A DNA stretch of 64,000 bases, from NCBI RefSeq assembly GCF_022846255.1, contig NZ_AP025682.1; one strand, given 5' to 3'. The notes beneath the pieces were generated by a model, which saw only the letters and a program-made list of their open reading frames with translations, was not told the DNA's origin and made no database searches. Of this stretch, positions 13-25,602 are shown piece by piece. Every line of letters begins with the position of its first letter. The stretch's first letter is position 1. Origin of the DNA: Escherichia coli. Its GTDB lineage: Bacteria > Pseudomonadota > Gammaproteobacteria > Enterobacterales > Enterobacteriaceae. Position numbers and translations under genes: made by a program.

Positions 13-222
13 TTACCAGCGGTAATCATGGCGTTTTTCCCAACTATCAACCTCTTTTTCTGCCTGATCTTTCTGATAACCGTAGCGTTCCTGGATTTTA
101 CCCACTAACTGATCACGTTTTCCTTCAATGATCGTCATATCATCATCGGTCAGTTTGCCCCATTGCTCTTTCACTTTACCTTTAAACTGTTTCCAGTTAC
201 CGCCGGCTTCATCTTTATTCAT
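13..222 (-). CDS. yjbJ: Stress-induced protein YjbJ (CsbD/UPF0337 family), about 69 aa
   Basis: ORF track 13..228; translation MNKDEAGGNWKQFKGKVKEQWGKLTDDDMTIIEGKRDQLVGKIQERYGY matches remembered YjbJ; start set at second Met. Confidence 0.85.
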   Translation of the reverse strand: MNKDEAGGNWKQFKGKVKEQWGKLTDDDMTIIEGKRDQLVGKIQERYGYQKDQAEKEVDSWEKRHDYRW

Positions 223-337
223 AATCAAGACCTCATCGTTAGGTTGTGAATGAGAGTACGTTCACTTTTCTTCTGAACGTGAGATTAAGTGTAGTCAGCA
301 ATTTGGCTTAGGATTATTTATTCAGAATTTTTAACCG

Positions 338-1663
338 TCACGTTGCGACAAACCAGGTATCGTTACGCCAGTGACGCCGCCAGATAGCCGCCAGAGAAAG
401 CCCGCGTAACGCCAGAAAGACGGTTAACGCCAGCCACAAACCATGATTCCCCAGCCACGGCAGCGTAAGGAGCGTCAGCGCAAAACCTGCGGCGGCCACC
501 GCCATACTGTTACGCATTTCGGCGGCACGCGTTGCGCCTATAAACATGCCGTCCAGCAGATAACACCAGACGCCGACCAACGGCAAAATCACCTGCCAGA
601 TAAGATAGCGGTCAGCCAGCTGCTGAATCTGGGTTAACGACGTCAGCAACGCAATGATGTGTTCCCCTGCCAGCAAATAAACCACCGAAAACAGTAACGC
701 TACGATCCCCGACTGGCGGCACGCTGCCCGCCAGACATCCAGCAATTGACTACCGTCGCGCGCACCGTATGCCTGACCGGAATGTGCTTCAACCGCGTAG
801 GCAAAACCATCCAGCGCATAGGCGGTAAAGGTGAGTAGCGTCATCAGAACCGCGTTAACAGCGATAATGTCACTCCCCAGTCGCGCGCCAAGTACGGTGA
901 TCGCGCCGAAACAGAGTTGCAACAACAGCGAGCGCAGCATGATATCGCGGTTAAGCGCCAGCAAGCGACGGAAATTTCCTCGCCAGGCAGTTTTCAGCAT
1001 TTCGCCGGAGATTCCGCGTAGTTTGAGGATTTTACGCACCATTAGCAGACCAATCAGCAATGTTGCATATTCCGCAATAACCGTCGCCAGCGCCGCGCCC
1101 TGCACGTTCATATGCAGCCCCATCACCAGCCAGACATCCAGCACAATGTTGAGGATATTGCCGACCACTAACAAAATTACTGGCGCACGGGCATATTGCA
1201 CGCCGAGTAACCAACCAAGTAATACCAGATTCGCCAGCGACGCCGGTGCGCTTAACCAGCGGATTTCAAGAAAGCGCCGCGCCTGTTCTAGCACCGCTTC
1301 GCTGCCGCCAACAATATGCAGCGCCAGATCGATAATCGGCGTACGCAGCAGCGCAATTAACGCCCCAGCCCCCAACGCCAACAGCAACGGTTGCACCAGC
1401 GCACGGGCTAGTGCCTGAGGATTTTTGGCACCATAAGCCTGCGCAGTCAGCCCGGTGGTGCTCATGCGTAAAAACAGCAACAACATAAAGAGAAAGCTGG
1501 TCGCCGTTGCACCAACCGCCACGCCGCCCAAATAAACCGGACTATCAAGATGACCAATTACCGCCGTATCGACCAGTCCCAGCAACGGAACGGTGATATT
1601 GGAGAAAATCATGGGTAAGGCGAGATGCCAGAGTGCTTTATCAGATGAAGTGAGGAATGCCAT
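338..1663 (-). CDS. dinF: MATE-family efflux protein DinF (SOS-inducible); start codon uncertain
   Basis: ORF track 338..1816; 12-TM MATE-like translation immediately downstream of lexA as in the lexA-dinF operon; start placed at Met of MAFLTSSDKALW, the upstream 51 codons overlap lexA and are probably not coding. Confidence 0.85.
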   Translation of the reverse strand: MAFLTSSDKALWHLALPMIFSNITVPLLGLVDTAVIGHLDSPVYLGGVAVGATATSFLFMLLLFLRMSTTGLTAQAYGAKNPQALARALVQPLLLALGAGALIALLRTPIIDLALHIVGGSEAVLEQARRFLEIRWLSAPASLANLVLLGWLLGVQYARAPVILLVVGNILNIVLDVWLVMGLHMNVQGAALATVIAEYATLLIGLLMVRKILKLRGISGEMLKTAWRGNFRRLLALNRDIMLRSLLLQLCFGAITVLGARLGSDIIAVNAVLMTLLTFTAYALDGFAYAVEAHSGQAYGARDGSQLLDVWRAACRQSGIVALLFSVVYLLAGEHIIALLTSLTQIQQLADRYLIWQVILPLVGVWCYLLDGMFIGATRAAEMRNSMAVAAAGFALTLLTLPWLGNHGLWLALTVFLALRGLSLAAIWRRHWRNDTWFVAT

Positions 1664-1736
1664 GCAGACAAGCCTGATGAAGAGAGATGAAAAAACAAAC
1701 CGCGACGCCAGGCGGCATCGCGGTCTCAGAGATATG

Positions 1737-2345
1737 TTACAGCCAGTCGCCGTTGCGAATAACCCCAACCGCCAGCCCCTCAATGGTGAAGCTCTGCTGA
1801 CGAAGGTCAACGACAATTGGTTTAAACTCGCTGTTTTCTGGCAACAGTTCGACTTTATTGCCCTGTTTTTTCAGGCGTTTAACGGTAACTTCGTCATCAA
1901 TACGTGCGACAACGACCTGACCGTTACGTACATCCTGAGTTTTATGCACTGCCAGCAAATCGCCATCCATAATGCCGATATCTTTCATCGACATCCCGCT
2001 GACGCGCAGCAGGAAATCAGCATTCGGCTTGAACAAGGAAGGATCGACCTGATAATGACCTTCGATATGCTGTTGCGCCAGAAGCGGTTCACCGGCAGCC
2101 ACACGACCTACCAGCGGCAACCCTTCTTCCTCTTCCTGCAATAAACGAATCCCGCGTGATGCGCCGGAAACAATTTCAATAACGCCTTTGCGTGCCAGCG
2201 CCTTCAGATGTTCTTCAGCCGCGTTTGGGGAACGGAACCCCAAACGCTGCGCGATTTCCGCACGCGTCGGCGGCATACCTGTCTGGCTGATGTGATCACG
2301 GATGAGATCAAACACCTCTTGTTGCCTGGCCGTTAACGCTTTCAT
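1737..2345 (-). CDS. lexA: LexA repressor, 202 aa
   Basis: Translation [69 protein letters not shown] with Ser-Lys dyad self-cleavage domain; full-length match to remembered LexA. Confidence 0.97.
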
Positions 2346-2353
2346 TCCGCCCC

Positions 2354-2390
2354 CTGGGTGTATATACAGTTATGCTGTGAGTATATACAG
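2354..2390 (-). promoter_or_regulatory. Two tandem LexA boxes (SOS boxes) in the lexA promoter
   Basis: ctgggtgtatatacag (2354..2369) and ctgtgagtatatacag (2375..2390) fit CTG-N10-CAG with TATATA core, directly upstream of lexA start. Confidence 0.85.
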
Positions 2391-2454
2391 CAAAAGGCGA
2401 TTTTGGAACCATAAACTGCACAATAAACCAGAGATTTATCGAAATCTGGAAGGG

Positions 2455-2823
2455 TTATCCAAAATGCGACCATAACAGGATGCACCAGGTAATCACGGCG
2501 ACGATAATGGCAATCAGCACTGCGGCGGATCCCATATCTTTAGCGCGTCCGGAAAGCTCATGGTATTCAGAGCCAATTCGGTCAACCACAGCTTCGATGG
2601 CGCTATTGAGAATTTCCACAATCATCACCAGCATCACGGAGCTGATAAGCAGCACGCGGGTAATCGCGTCCACATCCAGCCAGCAGGCGATAACCACCGC
2701 TAACAATACCGCTACGCCTTCCTGACGGAATGCCGCTTCGTTGATCCATGCAGCGCGTAAACCTTTCCAGGAATAGCCAGCAGCTTTGATAATTCGGATG
2801 AATCCAGTGGTATTATTGGCCAT
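2455..2823 (-). CDS. dgkA: Diacylglycerol kinase, 122 aa
   Basis: ORF track translation MANNTTGFTRIIKAAGYSWKGLRAAWINEAAFRQE, small 3-TM protein, conserved position between lexA and plsB. Confidence 0.95.
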   Translation of the reverse strand: MANNTTGFIRIIKAAGYSWKGLRAAWINEAAFRQEGVAVLLAVVIACWLDVDAITRVLLISSVMLVMIVEILNSAIEAVVDRIGSEYHELSGRAKDMGSAAVLIAIIVAVITWCILLWSHFG

Positions 2824-2993
2824 TGAAAGAACCTTTTTACATTATGAGCGTCAATATCAGTGTACCGTTAAATCCGATGATTCGGGTTTGCGTAACGCCG
2901 CGCGAAACATGAGCGGATACCACAGAATTTCCCATGACTTTCTGCTATCCTTGCCGCGCATTTGCATTATTAACCAGAGGCTTTACATCGTTT

Positions 2994-5417
2994 ATGTCCG
3001 GCTGGCCACGAATTTACTACAAATTACTGAATTTACCATTAAGCATCCTGGTAAAAAGCAAGTCTATTCCGGCGGATCCTGCCCCGGAACTGGGGCTGGA
3101 TACCTCTCGTCCAATTATGTACGTTTTGCCGTACAACTCGAAAGCTGACTTGCTGACGTTGCGCGCCCAGTGTCTGGCACATGACCTGCCTGACCCGTTA
3201 GAGCCGCTGGAAATCGACGGCACGCTACTGCCGCGCTATGTGTTCATTCACGGCGGGCCGCGTGTGTTCACCTATTACACGCCGAAAGAAGAGTCTATTA
3301 AGCTGTTCCACGACTATCTCGATTTGCACCGCAGCAACCCAAATCTGGATGTGCAGATGGTGCCAGTATCGGTGATGTTTGGTCGCGCGCCGGGGCGTGA
3401 AAAAGGCGAAGTGAACCCGCCGCTGCGTATGCTTAACGGCGTACAGAAATTTTTCGCTGTACTGTGGCTCGGTCGCGACAGTTTTGTGCGTTTCTCGCCG
3501 TCAGTTTCGCTGCGCCGTATGGCGGATGAACACGGCACGGATAAAACTATCGCTCAGAAACTGGCGCGCGTGGCGCGTATGCACTTTGCCCGTCAACGCC
3601 TGGCTGCCGTGGGTCCACGTCTGCCTGCTCGTCAGGATCTGTTTAATAAGCTGCTCGCCTCCCGCGCCATTGCGAAAGCGGTAGAAGATGAAGCGCGCAG
3701 CAAAAAAATCTCCCATGAAAAAGCGCAGCAGAACGCGATTGCGCTGATGGAAGAGATTGCGGCGAATTTCTCTTACGAGATGATCCGCCTGACTGACCGC
3801 ATTCTGGGCTTCACCTGGAACCGACTTTACCAGGGTATCAACGTCCATAACGCCGAGCGCGTTCGCCAGCTGGCCCACGACGGCCATGAGCTAGTGTATG
3901 TGCCTTGCCACCGCAGTCACATGGACTACCTGCTGCTTTCTTACGTGCTGTATCACCAGGGGCTGGTGCCGCCGCATATCGCCGCCGGGATCAACCTGAA
4001 CTTCTGGCCGGCCGGGCCGATTTTCCGCCGTCTGGGGGCGTTCTTTATTCGCCGTACGTTTAAAGGCAATAAACTTTATTCCACCGTTTTCCGTGAGTAT
4101 CTCGGCGAACTGTTCAGCCGTGGTTATTCCGTCGAGTATTTCGTGGAAGGCGGTCGTTCCCGTACGGGGCGTTTGCTGGATCCGAAAACCGGTACGCTAT
4201 CGATGACCATTCAGGCGATGCTGCGTGGCGGCACTCGTCCGATTACGCTGATTCCGATCTATATCGGTTATGAGCACGTCATGGAAGTGGGTACTTACGC
4301 CAAAGAACTGCGCGGTGCGACGAAAGAGAAAGAGAGCCTGCCGCAGATGCTGCGTGGTTTAAGCAAGCTGCGTAATCTCGGTCAGGGGTACGTCAACTTC
4401 GGTGAACCAATGCCGTTGATGACCTACCTTAACCAGCACGTACCAGACTGGCGTGAATCTATCGATCCCATCGAAGCGGTGCGTCCGGCCTGGTTAACGC
4501 CGACGGTCAATAATATTGCTGCCGATCTGATGGTACGCATTAACAACGCAGGCGCGGCAAACGCCATGAACCTGTGCTGTACTGCGCTTCTGGCGTCACG
4601 TCAGCGCTCACTCACCCGCGAGCAGTTAACCGAGCAACTCAACTGCTACCTGGATCTGATGCGCAACGTGCCTTACTCCACGGACTCTACCGTTCCTTCA
4701 GCCAGCGCCAGCGAGCTTATCGATCACGCGCTGCAAATGAACAAGTTTGAAGTCGAGAAAGACACTATCGGCGACATCATCATTCTGCCGCGCGAGCAAG
4801 CGGTGCTGATGACCTACTATCGCAACAACATTGCGCATATGTTGGTGCTGCCTTCTCTGATGGCGGCAATTGTCACCCAGCATCGCCACATCTCCCGCGA
4901 CGTATTGATGGAGCACGTCAATGTGCTTTACCCAATGCTGAAAGCGGAACTGTTCTTGCGCTGGGATCGCGACGAGTTACCGGACGTTATTGATGCGCTG
5001 GCAAATGAGATGCAACGTCAGGGGCTGATTACCCTGCAAGATGATGAGTTGCATATCAACCCGGCGCATTCTCGCACGCTACAGCTGCTGGCCGCAGGCG
5101 CGCGCGAAACGCTGCAACGTTATGCCATCACCTTCTGGCTGTTGAGTGCCAACCCGTCGATCAACCGCGGTACGCTGGAGAAAGAGAGCCGCACCGTCGC
5201 GCAACGTCTCTCCGTGCTGCACGGTATCAACGCGCCGGAGTTCTTCGACAAGGCGGTGTTCAGTTCTCTGGTGCTGACACTGCGTGATGAAGGGTATATC
5301 AGCGATAGCGGCGACGCCGAACCGGCAGAAACGATGAAGGTGTATCAGTTGCTGGCGGAGTTGATTACATCAGACGTGCGTTTGACGATTGAGAGTGCGA
5401 CGCAGGGCGAAGGGTAA
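2994..5417 (+). CDS. plsB: Glycerol-3-phosphate acyltransferase PlsB, 807 aa
   Basis: ORF track 2934..5417; start moved to ATG at 2994 ([29 protein letters not shown]); HXXXXD acyltransferase motif region ([17 protein letters not shown]) present. Confidence 0.95.
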
Positions 5418-20333: not shown

Positions 20334-21983
20334 TTAACCGCGCCACGCTTTATAGCGGTTAATCAGACCATTGGTCGAGCTATCGTGGCTGCTGATTTCT
20401 TTATCATCTTTCAGCTCTGGCAGAATACGGTTCGCCAGTTGTTTACCCAGCTCCACGCCCCACTGGTCGAAGGTGAAGATGTTCAGGATCACGCCCTGAG
20501 TAAAGATTTTGTGCTCATACAGCGCAATCAACGCCCCCAGGCTGAACGGAGTGATTTCACGCAGCAGGATGGAATTGGTCGGGCGGTTACCTTCGAACAC
20601 TTTGAACGGCACCACGTAGTCAAGCGTTGCCGGATCTTTACCCTGATCACGATATTCCTGCTCAACCACTTCGCGGGATTTACCAAACGCCAGCGCTTCG
20701 GTCTGAGCAAAGAAGTTAGACAGCAGTTTCTGGTGATGATCAGAGAGCGGGTTATGGGTGATAGCCGGAGCGATGAAATCGCACGGTACCATTTTGGTTC
20801 CCTGGTGGATCAGCTGATAGAACGCGTGCTGACCGTTCGTGCCAGGTTCACCCCAGATAATCGGGCCAGTCTGGTAATCCACAACCTTACCGTTACGGTC
20901 AACATACTTACCGTTGGATTCCATATTGCCCTGCTGGAAGTACGCCGCGAAACGGTGCATATACTGGTCATACGGCAGAATCGCTTCAGTTTCCGCGCCA
21001 AAGAAATTGTTGTACCAGATGCCAATCAGCGCCAGCAGTACAGGCAGGTTTTTCTCGGCAGGCGTGGTGGAGAAATGCTTGTCCATCGCGTGTGCGCCAG
21101 AAAGCAGTTCAACGAAGTTATCAAAGCCGATGGAGAGAACAATCGACAGGCCAATCGCTGACCACAAAGAGTAACGACCGCCGACCCAGTCCCAGAACTC
21201 GAACATGTTGGCAGTATCAATACCAAACTCGCCAACGGCTTTGGCGTTGGTTGAGAGCGCCGCAAAGTGTTTCGCAACGTGCTTCTCATCACCTGCCGCT
21301 TTCAGGAACCAGTCACGCGCGCTGTGGGCGTTGGTCATGGTTTCCTGAGTGGTGAAGGTTTTAGATGCTACCAGGAACAGCGTGGTTTCCGGGTTTACTT
21401 TTTTCAGCACTTCCGCGATGTGAGTCCCATCGACGTTAGAAACAAAGTGCATGTTCAGGTGGTTTTTGTATGGACGCAGTGCTTCAGTCACCATGTACGG
21501 GCCGAGGTCAGAACCGCCGATCCCGATGTTCACTACGTCAGTGATTGCTTTGCCGGTATAGCCTTTCCACTCACCGGAAATAATCGCTTCCGAGAAGGTT
21601 TTCATCTTCTCCAGCACCGCGTTGACTTCCGGCATAACATCTTTGCCATCAACCAGAATCGGGGTATTGCTACGGTTACGCAGCGCTACGTGCAGTACGG
21701 CGCGGTTTTCAGTGCGGTTGATCTTCTCGCCAGAGAACATCGACTTAATCGCGCCCGCCAGATCGCACTCTTTCGCCAGATCTTGTAATTTCGCCAGCGT
21801 CTCTTCAGTGATGCGGTTTTTGGAGTAATCCACCAGCATCTGATCGTCGAAGGTTGCGGAGAACTTAGAAAAACGATCGCCGTCTTTAGCAAAAAGATCG
21901 GCGATCGTAACGTCTTTCATTTCATCGAAGTGTTTCTGTAGTGCCTGCCAGGCAGCGGTCTGCGTTGGATTGATGTTTTTCAT
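20334..21983 (-). CDS. pgi: Glucose-6-phosphate isomerase Pgi, 549 aa
   Basis: ORF track 20334..21989; start at [72 protein letters not shown]; full-length match to remembered Pgi. Confidence 0.97.
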
Positions 21984-22204
21984 TAGCAATACTCTTCTGA
22001 TTTTGAGAATTGTGACTTTGGAAGATTGTAGCGCCAGTCACAGAAAAATGTGATGGTTTTAGTGCCGTTAGCGTAATGTTGAGTGTAAACCCTTAGCGCA
22101 GCGAAGCATTTATTAGCTGAACTACTGACCGCCAGGAGTGGATGAAAAATCCGCATGACCCCATCGTTGACAACCGCCCCGCTCACCCTTTATTTATAAA
22201 TGTA

Positions 22205-22430
22205 CTACCTGCGCTAGCGCAGGCCAGAAGAGGCGCGTTGCCCAAGTAACGGTGTTGGAGGAGCCAGTCCTGTGATAACACCTGAGGGGGTGCATCGCCG
22301 AGGTGATTGAACGGCTGGCTACGTTCATCATCGGCTACAGGGGCTGAATCCCCTGGGTTGTCACCAGAAGCGTTCGCAGTCGGGCGTTTCGCAAGTGGTG
22401 GAGCACTTCTGGGTGAAAATAGTAGCGAAG
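22205..22430 (+). promoter_or_regulatory. Lysine riboswitch (L-box) in lysC 5' leader
   Basis: Leader contains conserved L-box segments (agaggcgc...gtaacggtgttggaggagcc...ctgagggggtgcatcgccgagg...) upstream of lysC ATG at 22508; position and motifs as known for E. coli lysC. Confidence 0.75.
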
Positions 22431-22507
22431 TATCGCTCTGCGCCCACCCGTCTTCCGCTCTTCCCTTGTGCCAAGGCTGAAAATGGATCCCCTGACACGA
22501 GGTAGTT

Positions 22508-23857
22508 ATGTCTGAAATTGTTGTCTCCAAATTTGGCGGTACCAGCGTAGCTGATTTTGACGCCATGAACCGCAGCGCTGATATTGTGCTTTCTGATGCC
22601 AACGTGCGTTTAGTTGTCCTCTCGGCTTCTGCTGGTATCACTAATCTGCTGGTCGCTTTAGCTGAAGGACTGGAACCTGGCGAGCGATTCGAAAAACTCG
22701 ACGCAATCCGCAATATCCAGTTTGCCATTCTGGAACGTCTGCGTTACCCGAACGTTATCCGTGAAGAGATTGAACGTCTGCTGGAGAACATTACTGTTCT
22801 GGCAGAAGCGGCGGCGCTGGCAACGTCTCCGGCGCTGACAGATGAACTGGTCAGCCACGGCGAGCTGATGTCGACCCTGCTGTTTGTCGAAATCCTGCGC
22901 GAACGCGATGTTCAGGCACAGTGGTTTGATGTACGTAAAGTGATGCGTACCAACGACCGATTTGGTCGTGCAGAGCCAGATGTAGCCGCGCTGGCGGAAC
23001 TGGCCGCGCTGCAGCTGCTCCCACGCCTCAATGAAGGCTTAGTGATCACCCAGGGATTTATCGGCAGCGAAAATAAAGGTCGTACAACGACGCTTGGCCG
23101 TGGAGGCAGCGATTATACGGCAGCCTTGCTGGCGGAGGCTTTACACGCATCTCGTGTTGATATCTGGACCGACGTCCCGGGCATCTACACCACCGATCCA
23201 CGCGTGGTTTCCGCAGCAAAACGCATTGATGAAATCGCGTTTGCCGAAGCGGCAGAGATGGCAACTTTTGGTGCAAAAGTACTGCATCCGGCAACGTTGC
23301 TACCCGCAGTACGCAGCGATATCCCGGTCTTTGTCGGCTCCAGCAAAGACCCACGCGCAGGTGGTACGCTGGTGTGCAATAAAACTGAAAATCCGCCGCT
23401 GTTCCGCGCGCTGGCGCTTCGTCGCAATCAGACTCTGCTCACTTTGCACAGCCTGAATATGCTGCATTCTCGCGGTTTCCTCGCGGAAGTTTTCGGCATC
23501 CTCGCGCGGCATAATATTTCGGTAGACTTAATCACCACGTCAGAAGTGAGCGTGGCATTAACCCTTGATACCACTGGTTCAACCTCCACTGGCGATACGT
23601 TGCTGACGCAATCTCTGCTGATGGAGCTGTCTGCACTGTGCCGGGTGGAAGTGGAAGAGGGTCTGGCGCTGGTCGCGTTGATTGGCAATGACCTGTCAAA
23701 AGCCTGCGGCGTTGGCAAAGAGGTATTCGGCGTACTGGAACCGTTCAACATTCGCATGATTTGTTACGGCGCATCCAGCCATAACCTGTGCTTCCTGGTG
23801 CCCGGCGAAGATGCCGAGCAGGTAGTGCAGAAGCTGCATTTTAATTTGTTTGAGTAA
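22508..23857 (+). CDS. lysC: Lysine-sensitive aspartokinase III LysC, 449 aa
   Basis: Translation MSEIVVSKFGGTSVADFDAMNRSADIVLSDANVRLVVLSASAGITNLLVALAEG; aspartokinase domain plus C-terminal ACT domains. Confidence 0.97.
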   Translation: MSEIVVSKFGGTSVADFDAMNRSADIVLSDANVRLVVLSASAGITNLLVALAEGLEPGERFEKLDAIRNIQFAILERLRYPNVIREEIERLLENITVLAEAAALATSPALTDELVSHGELMSTLLFVEILRERDVQAQWFDVRKVMRTNDRFGRAEPDVAALAELAALQLLPRLNEGLVITQGFIGSENKGRTTTLGRGGSDYTAALLAEALHASRVDIWTDVPGIYTTDPRVVSAAKRIDEIAFAEAAEMATFGAKVLHPATLLPAVRSDIPVFVGSSKDPRAGGTLVCNKTENPPLFRALALRRNQTLLTLHSLNMLHSRGFLAEVFGILARHNISVDLITTSEVSVALTLDTTGSTSTGDTLLTQSLLMELSALCRVEVEEGLALVALIGNDLSKACGVGKEVFGVLEPFNIRMICYGASSHNLCFLVPGEDAEQVVQKLHFNLFE

Positions 23858-23859
23858 AC

Positions 23860-23897
23860 ACAGTATGGCCCGGAAGACATTATTTCGGGCCGTATTG
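23860..23897 (+). terminator. Rho-independent terminator after lysC
   Basis: Hairpin ggcccggaagacattatttcgggcc followed by gtattgttttt. Confidence 0.6.
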
Positions 23898-24109
23898 TTT
23901 TTCTTGTCATTATGCCCATAAATAAACGAGTCTATTCCCTGTTAACCAGCGTCTTTATCGGAGAATAATTGCCTTTAATTTTTTATCCGCATCTCTAACT
24001 AATTATCGAAAGAGATAAATAGTTAAGAGAAGGCAAAATGAATATTATCAGTTCTGCTCGCAAACGAATTCCCGTACACTGAACTCTCTGGCTCACTGAG
24101 GGCACCATC

Positions 24110-24382
24110 ATGGCACTCCCCCGTATTACCCAAAAAGAGATGACTGAACGCGAGCAGCGTGAACTTAAAACACTGCTGGATCGGGCGCGGATTGCGCATG
24201 GTCGCGTACTGACCAACTCCGAAACTAACAGCATTAAGAAAGAGTACATCGATAAATTAATGGTCGAGCGTGAGGCTGAAGCGAAAAAAGCCCGCCAATT
24301 GAAGAAAAAGCAGGCTTATAAACCGGATCCTGAGGCGTCATTTAGCTGGTCAGCAAATACGTCGACGCGCGGCAGGCGCTGA
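24110..24382 (+). CDS. yjbD: YjbD, DUF3811 family protein, 90 aa
   Basis: Translation MALPRITQKEMTEREQRELKTLLDRARIAHGRVLTNSETNSIKKEYIDKLMVEREAEAKKARQLKKKQAYKPDPEASFSWSANTSTRGRR. Confidence 0.85.
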   Translation: MALPRITQKEMTEREQRELKTLLDRARIAHGRVLTNSETNSIKKEYIDKLMVEREAEAKKARQLKKKQAYKPDPEASFSWSANTSTRGRR

Positions 24383-25255
24383 TTAACGCCCCTTCTTTTT
24401 GCGCCCCGGCGAGGTAAAACGCTTACCGTTGGACGCCGGGCGACCGCCTTTTTCCGCCGTTTTTTCCATCTTAACGACTGGACGTTTGATGCCTACCGTT
24501 TTCGGTTTGGCCTTCGCTTTAGGTTTTGCCTCGGAAGAGGAATTTTCAATGAGCTTAAAGAGATCGATTAACTCATCGTCGGTTAAATCGCGCCACTCAC
24601 CCAGCGGAATGCCGCTTAAGCTGACGTTCATAATGCGCGTACGTTCCAGCTTTTTCACTTCGTAACCAAAGTGCTCGCACATGCGACGAATCTGACGGTT
24701 CAGCCCCTGCACCAGGGTAATGCGGAAGACAAACGGTGCTTCTTTTTTGACTTTGCACTTTTTAGTTACTGTCCCGAGGATCGGCACTCCCGCCCCCATA
24801 CCACGAATAAATTCATCGGTAATCGGTTTATCAACCGTCACCAGATACTCTTTCTCATGATCGTTACCCGCACGGAGGATCTTATTCACCAGATCGCCGT
24901 GATTGGTGAGGAAAATCAGCCCCTGGGAATCTTTATCCAGGCGGCCAATCGGGAACACGCGTTTGCTGTGGTTAACGAAATCGACAATGTTATCGCGCTC
25001 GCCATCTTCGGTGGTGCTGACAATACCGACGGGCTTGTTCAGGGCGATAAGTACCAAATCTTCGGATTCCCGAGGCTCAATCAACTGACCGTTTACTTTC
25101 ACAACGTCGCCGGGTTTCACCTGATCGCCAATGGTGGCTCGCTTGCCATTAAGGAACACATTGCCTTGCTCGATATAGCGATCCGCTTCGCGGCGTGAGC
25201 AAATTCCGCTTTCGCTGATGTATTTATTTAAACGGACTGATGAGTCGGGCAGCAT
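24383..25255 (-). CDS. rluF: 23S rRNA pseudouridine(2604) synthase RluF, 290 aa
   Basis: S4 RNA-binding N-terminus ([34 protein letters not shown]) and RsuA-type catalytic motif ([17 protein letters not shown]); Lys-rich C-terminal tail. Confidence 0.9.
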
Positions 25256-25602
25256 AAATTCTCCTGTAAAACGCGGAATATACCGTACCTCTTAGCGGGG
25301 AAAAACAGGGTTATGCGGCAACGTCGAAATTAAATGTGATCTGCCACGCCTTTTATCACAAAAGTGTCTCCGGAAGTACGATGCAAATTTGCCTGGCAAA
25401 ATAAGAATAATCAACAAATTACGAATCGCTGCACACCTGTGCTGATGACTACTACGCAGAGAAACAAATGTGCAAGAGAAAGCGCTATTTCCCCCCATGC
25501 AAAGAGTGAAAAATCGCTTTGAAAGGCCATCATGATGGGGTTATATCAGATCAAGCGGTGAGAACGCGTATTTGCACAAATGTGCAGAACCAGGAGGCGG
25601 CA

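What the first reader, a model, noticed from the sequence alone, without database searches (positions are those of the whole stretch)
24038..24082. 14-codon mini-ORF with a strong Shine-Dalgarno just upstream of yjbD
atg at 24038 is preceded by aagagaagg at ideal spacing and encodes MNIISSARKRIPVH before a stop, 28 bp ahead of the yjbD start. It could be a leader peptide or small protein, or a chance ORF in a promoter region.
Basis: seen in the sequence. Interest (0 to 1): 0.2.

Follow-up and report, generated by a model that had tools for sequence, protein, structure and literature searches.

The report
Chance mini-ORF in yjbD promoter DNA
The 14-codon reading frame upstream of E. coli yjbD is really in the sequence, but it is no better than chance, is absent or broken in a quarter of E. 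coli and in every other genus, and overlaps what looks like the yjbD promoter, so it is most likely ordinary non-coding DNA.

Summary
The ORF exists as described: ATG 24038, TGA 24080-24082, MNIISSARKRIPVH, 27 nt before yjbD. The window is E. coli (lysC - yjbD - rluF).

Its Shine-Dalgarno is only moderate (-5.1 kcal/mol; yjbD -6.1, lysC -7.2). About 10% of all ATGs in the window score as well. Eighteen comparable mini-ORFs start in the window's roughly 11.5 kb of non-coding DNA, and 6% of shuffles of this spacer produce one.

It is not conserved. 3,808 of 5,426 complete E. coli genomes carry the exact allele. 1,314 carry an allele with AGG in place of ATG and a degraded SD. Other lineages lose homology inside the ORF. 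In other Escherichia species codon 10 is a stop or the start is missing, and 70+ other Enterobacteriaceae have no counterpart.

The only element conserved upstream of yjbD is TTGCCG-TACACT-G, 33-37 nt before the ATG in 83 of 85 loci. It is probably the -10 box, and it overlaps the ORF's last codons and stop.

No terminator, RNA structure or Rfam family lies between the ORF and yjbD. Curated K-12 annotation has no gene there. No ribosome-profiling or TSS record could be retrieved.

Verdict: a chance ORF in promoter or upstream DNA, of low interest.

The parts
23860..23898 (+). lysC intrinsic terminator (GC-rich hairpin followed by a T run); it closes the upstream transcription unit
   Evidence: 16-pair stem, 7 GC pairs, TTTTCTTGTC tail; repeat I1
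23942..23969 (+). Only sigma-70 consensus match in the spacer (TTAACC-16-AATAAT). It is at chance level and is absent from E. coli alleles whose homology starts at about 24001. If active, it would place the mini-ORF in a long yjbD 5' UTR.
   Evidence: 1 found vs 0.9 expected in shuffles; L003 is not homologous upstream of about 24001
23996..24025 (.). Imperfect palindrome TAACTAATTATC-N6-GATAAATAGTTA. It may be a regulator binding site.
   Evidence: repeat I4 (12-nt arms, 92% complementary); fold; the inner TTATC-N6-GATAA is kept in the L003 allele
24025..24033 (+). SD-like purine run AAGAGAAGG, 4 nt before the ATG; moderate strength
   Evidence: -5.1 kcal/mol; degraded to AAGAAGAGAA in the AGG allele
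24038..24082 (+). The 14-codon mini-ORF (MNIISSARKRIPVH, stop TGA); judged a chance ORF
24069..24081 (+). Conserved motif TTCCCG-TACACT-G (family consensus TTGCCGTACACTG). The hexamer at 24075-24080 is the probable yjbD -10 box, which predicts a TSS near 24086-24089 (inferred).
   Evidence: TA[C/G]ACT at -33 to -37 in 83 of 85 loci; information content confined to this motif; invariant across Escherichia
24098..24102 (+). yjbD Shine-Dalgarno GAGGG, 7 nt before the ATG. It can pair weakly with CUCUC at 24084-24088.
   Evidence: -6.1 kcal/mol; weak hairpin, z +1.1, not significant
24110..24382 (+). yjbD (DUF3811 family, 90 aa), the real gene downstream

Best explanation
The mini-ORF is a fortuitous reading frame in the non-coding DNA upstream of yjbD. 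It is not a gene or a leader peptide.

The stretch 24038-24082 is best read as yjbD upstream and promoter DNA. Its last four codons and its stop overlap the motif TTCCCG-TACACT-G, which is conserved across the family and is probably the yjbD -10 element. With a TSS about 7 nt downstream (near 24087), most or all of the ORF would lie upstream of the yjbD transcript. The SD-like purine run is the right arm of an AT/purine-rich palindrome.

The 14-codon length arose in the E. coli lineage, when an older stop at codon 10 (TAA/TGA in other Escherichia) became CGA and the frame ran on to the TGA next to the -10 box.

Shown: the ORF is present, it is at chance level, it is not conserved, and no attenuator structure is present. 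Inferred: TACACT is the -10 box, and the TSS lies downstream of the ORF. Low-level incidental translation from read-through or upstream-initiated transcripts is not excluded, but nothing indicates a selected function.
For: 1. Chance level: SD -5.1 kcal/mol, matched by 10.5% of window ATGs; 58 comparable ORFs in the window; 18 in crude non-coding DNA; 6% of spacer shuffles.
2. Within E. coli: exact allele in 3,808 of 5,426 genomes. An AGG-for-ATG allele with a degraded SD is exact in 1,314 genomes. In L004, homology begins only at 24068. One strain has IS1 inserted at about 24031.
3. Within Escherichia: 1 of 9 allele types has the 14-codon ORF, 2 have a 9-codon version, and 6 have none. Codon 10 is TAA or TGA outside E. 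coli.
4. In 70+ other Enterobacteriaceae species that keep yjbD, there is no homologous or positionally conserved uORF.
5. The only conserved upstream element is TTGCCG-TACACT-G at a fixed -33 to -37 from the ATG. It overlaps the ORF's 3' end.
6. There is no terminator between the ORF and yjbD. The RNA is less structured than shuffles, z +1.85. There is no Rfam hit above noise.
7. No CDS is annotated here in curated K-12 MG1655 or in any listed RefSeq genome.
Against: - 70% of E. coli genomes keep ATG, SD and frame intact. That is expected from the low divergence within the species, but it does not exclude a young lineage-specific gene.
- The TSS was not observed. No dataset could be retrieved.
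- The TACACT box has no conserved -35 and no purine at the usual +1 positions.
- In the Enterobacter-type clade, an 11-bp SD-sequestering hairpin begins directly after TACACT and shows one compensatory and one G-U change. At least there, some transcripts must start upstream of the predicted TSS. yjbD mRNAs that include the mini-ORF may therefore exist in E. coli too.
- Ribosome-profiling lists could not be checked. The Stringer et al. table was truncated.
Confidence: 0.85

Rival explanations
1. A young upstream ORF, restricted to part of E. coli, that is translated from yjbD transcripts starting further upstream (for example from the TTAACC-16-AATAAT site at 23942-23969, or by lysC read-through). 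A ribosome terminating at 24082, 15 nt before the yjbD SD, would open the weak CUCUC/GAGGG pairing and couple yjbD translation to uORF translation. Alternatively, the 14-aa peptide acts on its own.
For: ATG, a usable SD and an intact frame are present in 3,808 of 5,426 genomes. The stop lies 27 nt before the yjbD ATG. A weak hairpin involving the yjbD SD can form. The Enterobacter-clade hairpin suggests that some yjbD transcripts start upstream of TACACT.
Against: - The start codon is absent in 24% of E. coli, and the frame is truncated or absent in all other Escherichia lineages and genera.
- The ORF is at chance level.
- The hairpin is not significant, z +1.1.
- The upstream promoter match is at chance level and is absent from other alleles.
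- There is no annotation in curated K-12.
Confidence: 0.07
2. A classical leader peptide of a transcription attenuator that controls yjbD. Ribosome stalling in the mini-ORF would select between terminator and antiterminator hairpins.
For: Only the position: a short ORF with an SD just upstream of a gene.
Against: - There is no intrinsic terminator between 24038 and 24110.
- The region folds worse than shuffled sequence, z +1.85.
- Only 27 nt separate the stop from the next ATG, too little for alternative hairpins.
- There is no run of codons for one amino acid.
- The ORF is not conserved where yjbD is.
- There is no Rfam leader family.
Confidence: 0.01
3. TACACT is not the -10 box. The conserved 13-mer would instead be a protein- or RNA-level element inside a longer 5' UTR. 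The mini-ORF would then lie on the yjbD mRNA and be translated incidentally (pervasive, non-selected translation).
For: No conserved -35 and no purine at +1. The hairpin's outer stem starts right after TACACT in the Enterobacter clade, with RNA-type G-U and compensatory changes. RpoD-only genomic SELEX lists no yjbD promoter, though it lists promoters for the neighbouring spacers.
Against: - The hexamer keeps T1, A2 and T6 invariant and tolerates C3-to-G, the pattern expected of a -10 element.
- It sits at a fixed 33-37 nt from the ATG in 83 of 85 species, whatever gene lies upstream.
- In several genera the upstream gene ends within 15-25 nt of it, which leaves it as the only shared promoter-like element.
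Confidence: 0.25

Closest known systems
Amino-acid operon leader peptides (thrL, pheL, hisL, ivbL) and pyrL-type attenuators of E. coli
   Same: A short ATG-started ORF with an SD, placed just upstream of a structural gene on the same strand.
   Different: No terminator or antiterminator, no regulatory codon run, only 27 nt to the next start, not conserved with the downstream gene, and probably upstream of the TSS.
Small proteins of 50 aa or fewer found in E. coli K-12 by initiation-site ribosome profiling (bioRxiv 10.1101/511675; bioRxiv 10.1101/2021.07.02.450978)
   Same: The size class (14 aa), an intergenic location, and an ATG plus an SD-like sequence.
   Different: Not in the curated K-12 annotation. 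Not found in the retrievable part of those papers' tables, which is inconclusive because the files were cut or absent. No conservation of start, frame or length outside part of E. coli.
Sigma-70-family promoter -10 element identified by phylogenetic footprinting
   Same: TACACT matches TATAAT at T1, A2, A4 and T6. It is invariant at those positions, lies at a fixed distance from the start codon, and is the only conserved block upstream of yjbD.
   Different: No recognisable -35 or extended -10, no mapped TSS, and the sigma factor is unknown.

Membership tests
Attenuation leader peptide | Intrinsic terminator with a competing antiterminator between the leader ORF and the structural gene | tested here: not met
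   No terminator-like site between 24038 and 24110. The fold of 24020-24125 has z +1.85, and 196 of 200 shuffles fold at least as well.
Attenuation leader peptide | Run of codons for the regulatory amino acid, or another defined stalling motif | tested here: not met
   MNIISSARKRIPVH has no more than two consecutive codons for any one amino acid. yjbD is a DUF3811 protein, not a biosynthetic gene.
Attenuation leader peptide | Leader ORF conserved together with the regulated gene | tested here: not met
   yjbD is kept in 85 loci. The ORF is present only in K-12-type E. coli, plus a 9-codon version in two Escherichia species.
Genuine small-protein gene (sORF) | Start codon with a ribosome-binding site better than background | tested here: inconclusive
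   An ATG and an SD of -5.1 kcal/mol are present, but 10.5% of all ATGs score as well, and the SD is weaker than those of yjbD and lysC.
Genuine small-protein gene (sORF) | Reading frame (start, length, stop) conserved in related genomes | tested here: not met
   ATG is AGG in 1,314 E. coli genomes. There is a stop at codon 10, or no start, in other Escherichia. Other genera have no counterpart.
Genuine small-protein gene (sORF) | Direct evidence of translation (ribosome footprints, tagged product) | not testable with these tools
   Supplements were searched without result, but they were truncated or not held. There is no CDS in the curated K-12 annotation.
yjbD core promoter (-10 element) | Hexamer matching TATAAT at the critical positions T1, A2 and T6 | tested here: met
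   TACACT at 24075-24080. TA[C/G]ACT is present in 84 of 85 loci.
yjbD core promoter (-10 element) | Fixed position relative to the gene and conservation above the flanks | tested here: met
   At -33 to -37 in 83 of 85 loci. Information content of 1-2 bits is confined to TTGCCG-TACACT-G, and below 0.7 bits elsewhere upstream.
yjbD core promoter (-10 element) | -35 or extended -10 element at proper spacing | tested here: not met
   TTCTGC (2 of 6 matches) at a 17-nt spacing. No conserved columns at -35. Not called by the consensus scan.
yjbD core promoter (-10 element) | Mapped transcription start 6-9 nt downstream | not testable with these tools
   No TSS record for yjbD could be retrieved.

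The most novel reading that the evidence does not exclude
A de novo upstream ORF, restricted to part of E. coli, is translated from long yjbD transcripts. By terminating 15 nt before the yjbD Shine-Dalgarno it unmasks that site, so that yjbD translation differs between ATG-allele lineages (K-12, O157, B2) and AGG-allele lineages (O111/O103-type). This would be a natural on/off polymorphism of a translational coupling device.
Probability: 0.05. Interest if true: 0.3.

Novelty: not a real feature. Interest (0 to 1): 0.05.

Why it matters
This mainly matters as a negative result. It shows that an SD+ATG mini-ORF in front of a gene can be dismissed with cheap tests: background rate, allele survey, cross-genus footprinting. 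It also locates the probable yjbD promoter. If the ORF were functional after all, the natural ATG/AGG polymorphism among E. coli lineages would give a ready-made experiment on a very young uORF, but nothing here points that way.

Tried and rejected
- **Rfam scan of 21500-25500 at E up to 1.** It found only the known lysine riboswitch upstream of lysC. The hits near the ORF are noise (mir-320 at 19.8 bits against a gathering score of 55.5).
- **Attenuator model.** Rejected on structure.
- **Ribosome-profiling and sORF lists.** The Stringer et al. preprint table is held only in truncated form, sorted by coordinate with the + strand first, so the lack of hits for the peptide, gene names or coordinates says nothing. 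The Weaver et al. preprint has no supplements held. The smORFer supplement is tiny. The published J Bacteriol version is not held.
- **TSS datasets.** No yjbD entry was retrievable from Cappable-seq, the Rend-seq annotation, ROSE or Shigella M90T dRNA-seq. Thomason et al. 2015 is not held.
- **Literature on yjbD and DUF3811.** Nearly all hits are Bacillus spx (an unrelated 'yjbD'). One G-quadruplex study uses a yjbD-associated sequence and says nothing about this ORF.
- **Alternative sigma-factor readings of the conserved motif (sigma-32, sigma-E, sigma-28, sigma-54).** Compared with consensus sequences from memory and rejected, because the required upstream element is not conserved. This was a reasoning check, not a tool test.
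- **PurR half-site.** CGCAAACG at 24059-24066 resembles a PurR half-site, but it exists only in E. coli and has no second half. Dismissed.

Full report
**Observation.** The window is Escherichia coli. The lysC-yjbD spacer is 100% identical to strain 95-3322 and matches 5,310 of 5,426 complete E. coli genomes. The local gene order is:
- lysC, 22508-23857 (+)
- lysC terminator, 23860-23898
- yjbD, 24110-24382 (+; Pfam DUF3811, E 7e-43)
- rluF, 24383-25255 (-)

ATG is at 24038, followed by 14 sense codons (MNIISSARKRIPVH) and TGA at 24080-24082, with 27 nt between the stop and the yjbD ATG. The purine run AAGAGAAGG ends 4 nt before the ATG.

**Is it more than chance?** No.
- Pairing of the upstream 15 nt with the 16S rRNA 3' end gives -5.1 kcal/mol, weaker than yjbD (-6.1) and lysC (-7.2).
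- 203 of 1,934 ATGs in the window (10.5%) score as well.
- 58 ATG ORFs of 14-50 codons in the window have an equal or better SD.
- Counting only starts in about 11.5 kb not covered by long ORFs, 18 such mini-ORFs of 10-50 codons remain. This one has the weakest SD of the set.
- Dinucleotide-preserving shuffles of the 252-nt spacer produce at least one such ORF on the + strand in 6% of trials. With dozens of spacers per window, one or more is expected.

**Conservation within E. coli.**
- The exact 61-nt SD+ORF allele is in 3,808 of 5,426 genomes, including K-12 and O157:H7.
- A second major allele, exact in 1,314 genomes including O111 and O103 strains, reads AAGAAGAGAACAAAGGAAT. ATG has become AGG, the SD-like run is degraded, and no in-frame ATG, GTG or TTG remains.
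- These strains have a slipin-family gene upstream of yjbD instead of lysC, and homology to the window starts at about 24001.
- In a third type, with a HAD hydrolase and a DeoR regulator upstream, homology starts only at 24068, inside the ORF.
- One strain has IS1 inserted at about 24031.
- No listed RefSeq genome annotates anything under the ORF. The curated K-12 MG1655 record has no gene between yjbD and lysC.

**Conservation beyond E. coli.** A scan of one genome per species with YjbD returned 80 loci in more than 25 genera.
- Within Escherichia, E. sp. E1V33 and E. whittamii keep the ATG but stop after 9 codons.
- MOD1-EC7003 has AGG and a stop at codon 10.
- Two deep 'E. coli' lineages and E. 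albertii have no start, or no homology upstream of 24068.
- Codon 10 is TAA or TGA in every non-coli lineage that aligns. The 14-codon frame is therefore an E. coli-specific read-through of an older stop.
- In Citrobacter, Klebsiella, Kluyvera, Salmonella arizonae, Enterobacter and the other genera there is no homologous ORF, and no positionally conserved uORF of any kind.

**What is conserved instead.**
- Anchoring all loci on yjbD shows a hexamer TA[C/G]ACT at -33 to -37 from the ATG in 83 of 85 loci.
- Information content is concentrated in TTGCCG-TACACT-G(A) and is near zero further upstream, including all positions that correspond to the body of the mini-ORF.
- In the window this motif is at 24069-24081. 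The ORF's last four codons and its TGA therefore lie on it.
- The invariance of T1, A2 and T6, the tolerated change at position 3, and the fixed distance to the start codon whatever gene lies upstream all fit a -10 promoter element. That predicts a TSS near 24086-24089 and a 21-24 nt 5' UTR carrying the GAGGG Shine-Dalgarno.
- On this reading the mini-ORF occupies about -50 to -5 of the yjbD promoter and is not on the yjbD mRNA.

This step is inferred, not shown. There are four caveats:
- There is no conserved -35.
- The consensus scan does not call this promoter.
- RpoD-only genomic SELEX lists promoters for the neighbouring spacers but none for yjbD (PMC3946193).
- In the Enterobacter/Lelliottia-type clade a strong hairpin (CTGAAGCCTCC-N5/6-GGAGGCTTCAG; -24.8 kcal/mol, z -3.1) starts directly after TACACT and shows a compensatory change and a G-U change. 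Some transcripts there must begin further upstream.

**Leader-peptide test.**
- No terminator-like site lies between the ORF and yjbD.
- The RNA from 24020 to 24125 folds worse than shuffled controls (z +1.85).
- Only a weak, non-significant CUCUC/GAGGG pairing touches the yjbD SD.
- No Rfam family matches above noise.
- The peptide has no regulatory codon run.

The attenuator model is rejected.

**Experimental records.** I could not retrieve any ribosome-profiling or TSS entry for this site. The relevant tables are truncated or not held, so this is an untested point and not a negative result.

**Conclusion.** Incidental translation from longer transcripts cannot be excluded. A selected function as a uORF or small protein has about 5-7% probability, given the loss of start, frame or homology in a quarter of E. 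coli and in all other taxa. Interest is low.

Noticed in passing
L072:1471-1498 (also L059-L062, L067-L078, L082; 30-3 nt before the yjbD ATG): In Enterobacter, Lelliottia, Leclercia and Pseudescherichia-type species the yjbD 5' region forms a perfect 11-bp hairpin, CTGAAGCCTCC-loop-GGAGGCTTCAG, that buries the yjbD Shine-Dalgarno (-24.8 kcal/mol, z -3.1, 0 of 200 shuffles). L078 carries a compensatory A-to-G / T-to-C change and L057 a G-U change. It looks like a translational control element (thermometer-like, or one that silences read-through transcripts). The E. coli version is only a weak 5-bp pairing.
   Followed up: partly
window 23996-24025: Imperfect palindrome TAACTAATTATC-N6-GATAAATAGTTA (12-nt arms, 92% complementary), about 60-90 nt upstream of the predicted yjbD TSS. 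The inner TTATC-N6-GATAA is kept in the divergent L003 allele. It may be a regulator binding site, and its right arm supplies part of the apparent SD of the mini-ORF.
   Followed up: partly
window 23858-24068; L003:1081-1609; L004:1484-1545; L086:488-1185: The DNA upstream of yjbD is a variable junction in E. coli. Different lineages have lysC, a divergent slipin-family gene, a HAD hydrolase plus DeoR regulator, or an IS1 insertion there. Breakpoints are at about window 24001, 24068 and 24031.
   Followed up: partly
window 24382/24383; L002:2024-2155: In the window strain the yjbD and rluF stop codons abut with no spacer. K-12-type strains carry a 132-bp insert there with 14-nt terminal inverted repeats (ATCAACGCCTGAGA / TCTGAGGCGTTAAT) and an internal GC-rich palindrome (CCCCTCACCC...GGGGCGAGGGG). 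It looks like a small MITE or boxC-like repeat element, and it also changes the yjbD stop codon (TGA vs TAA).
   Followed up: partly
window 25256 onward; L001:3246-3255 vs L002:3240-3253: Beyond rluF, the window-type strain has a sugar-binding transcriptional regulator where K-12 has pepE. This indicates another strain-specific insertion next to this locus.
   Followed up: no
window 22220-22416: The known lysine riboswitch (Rfam RF00168, 99.5 bits) lies in the lysC leader. It is ordinary, and is recorded for orientation.
   Followed up: yes
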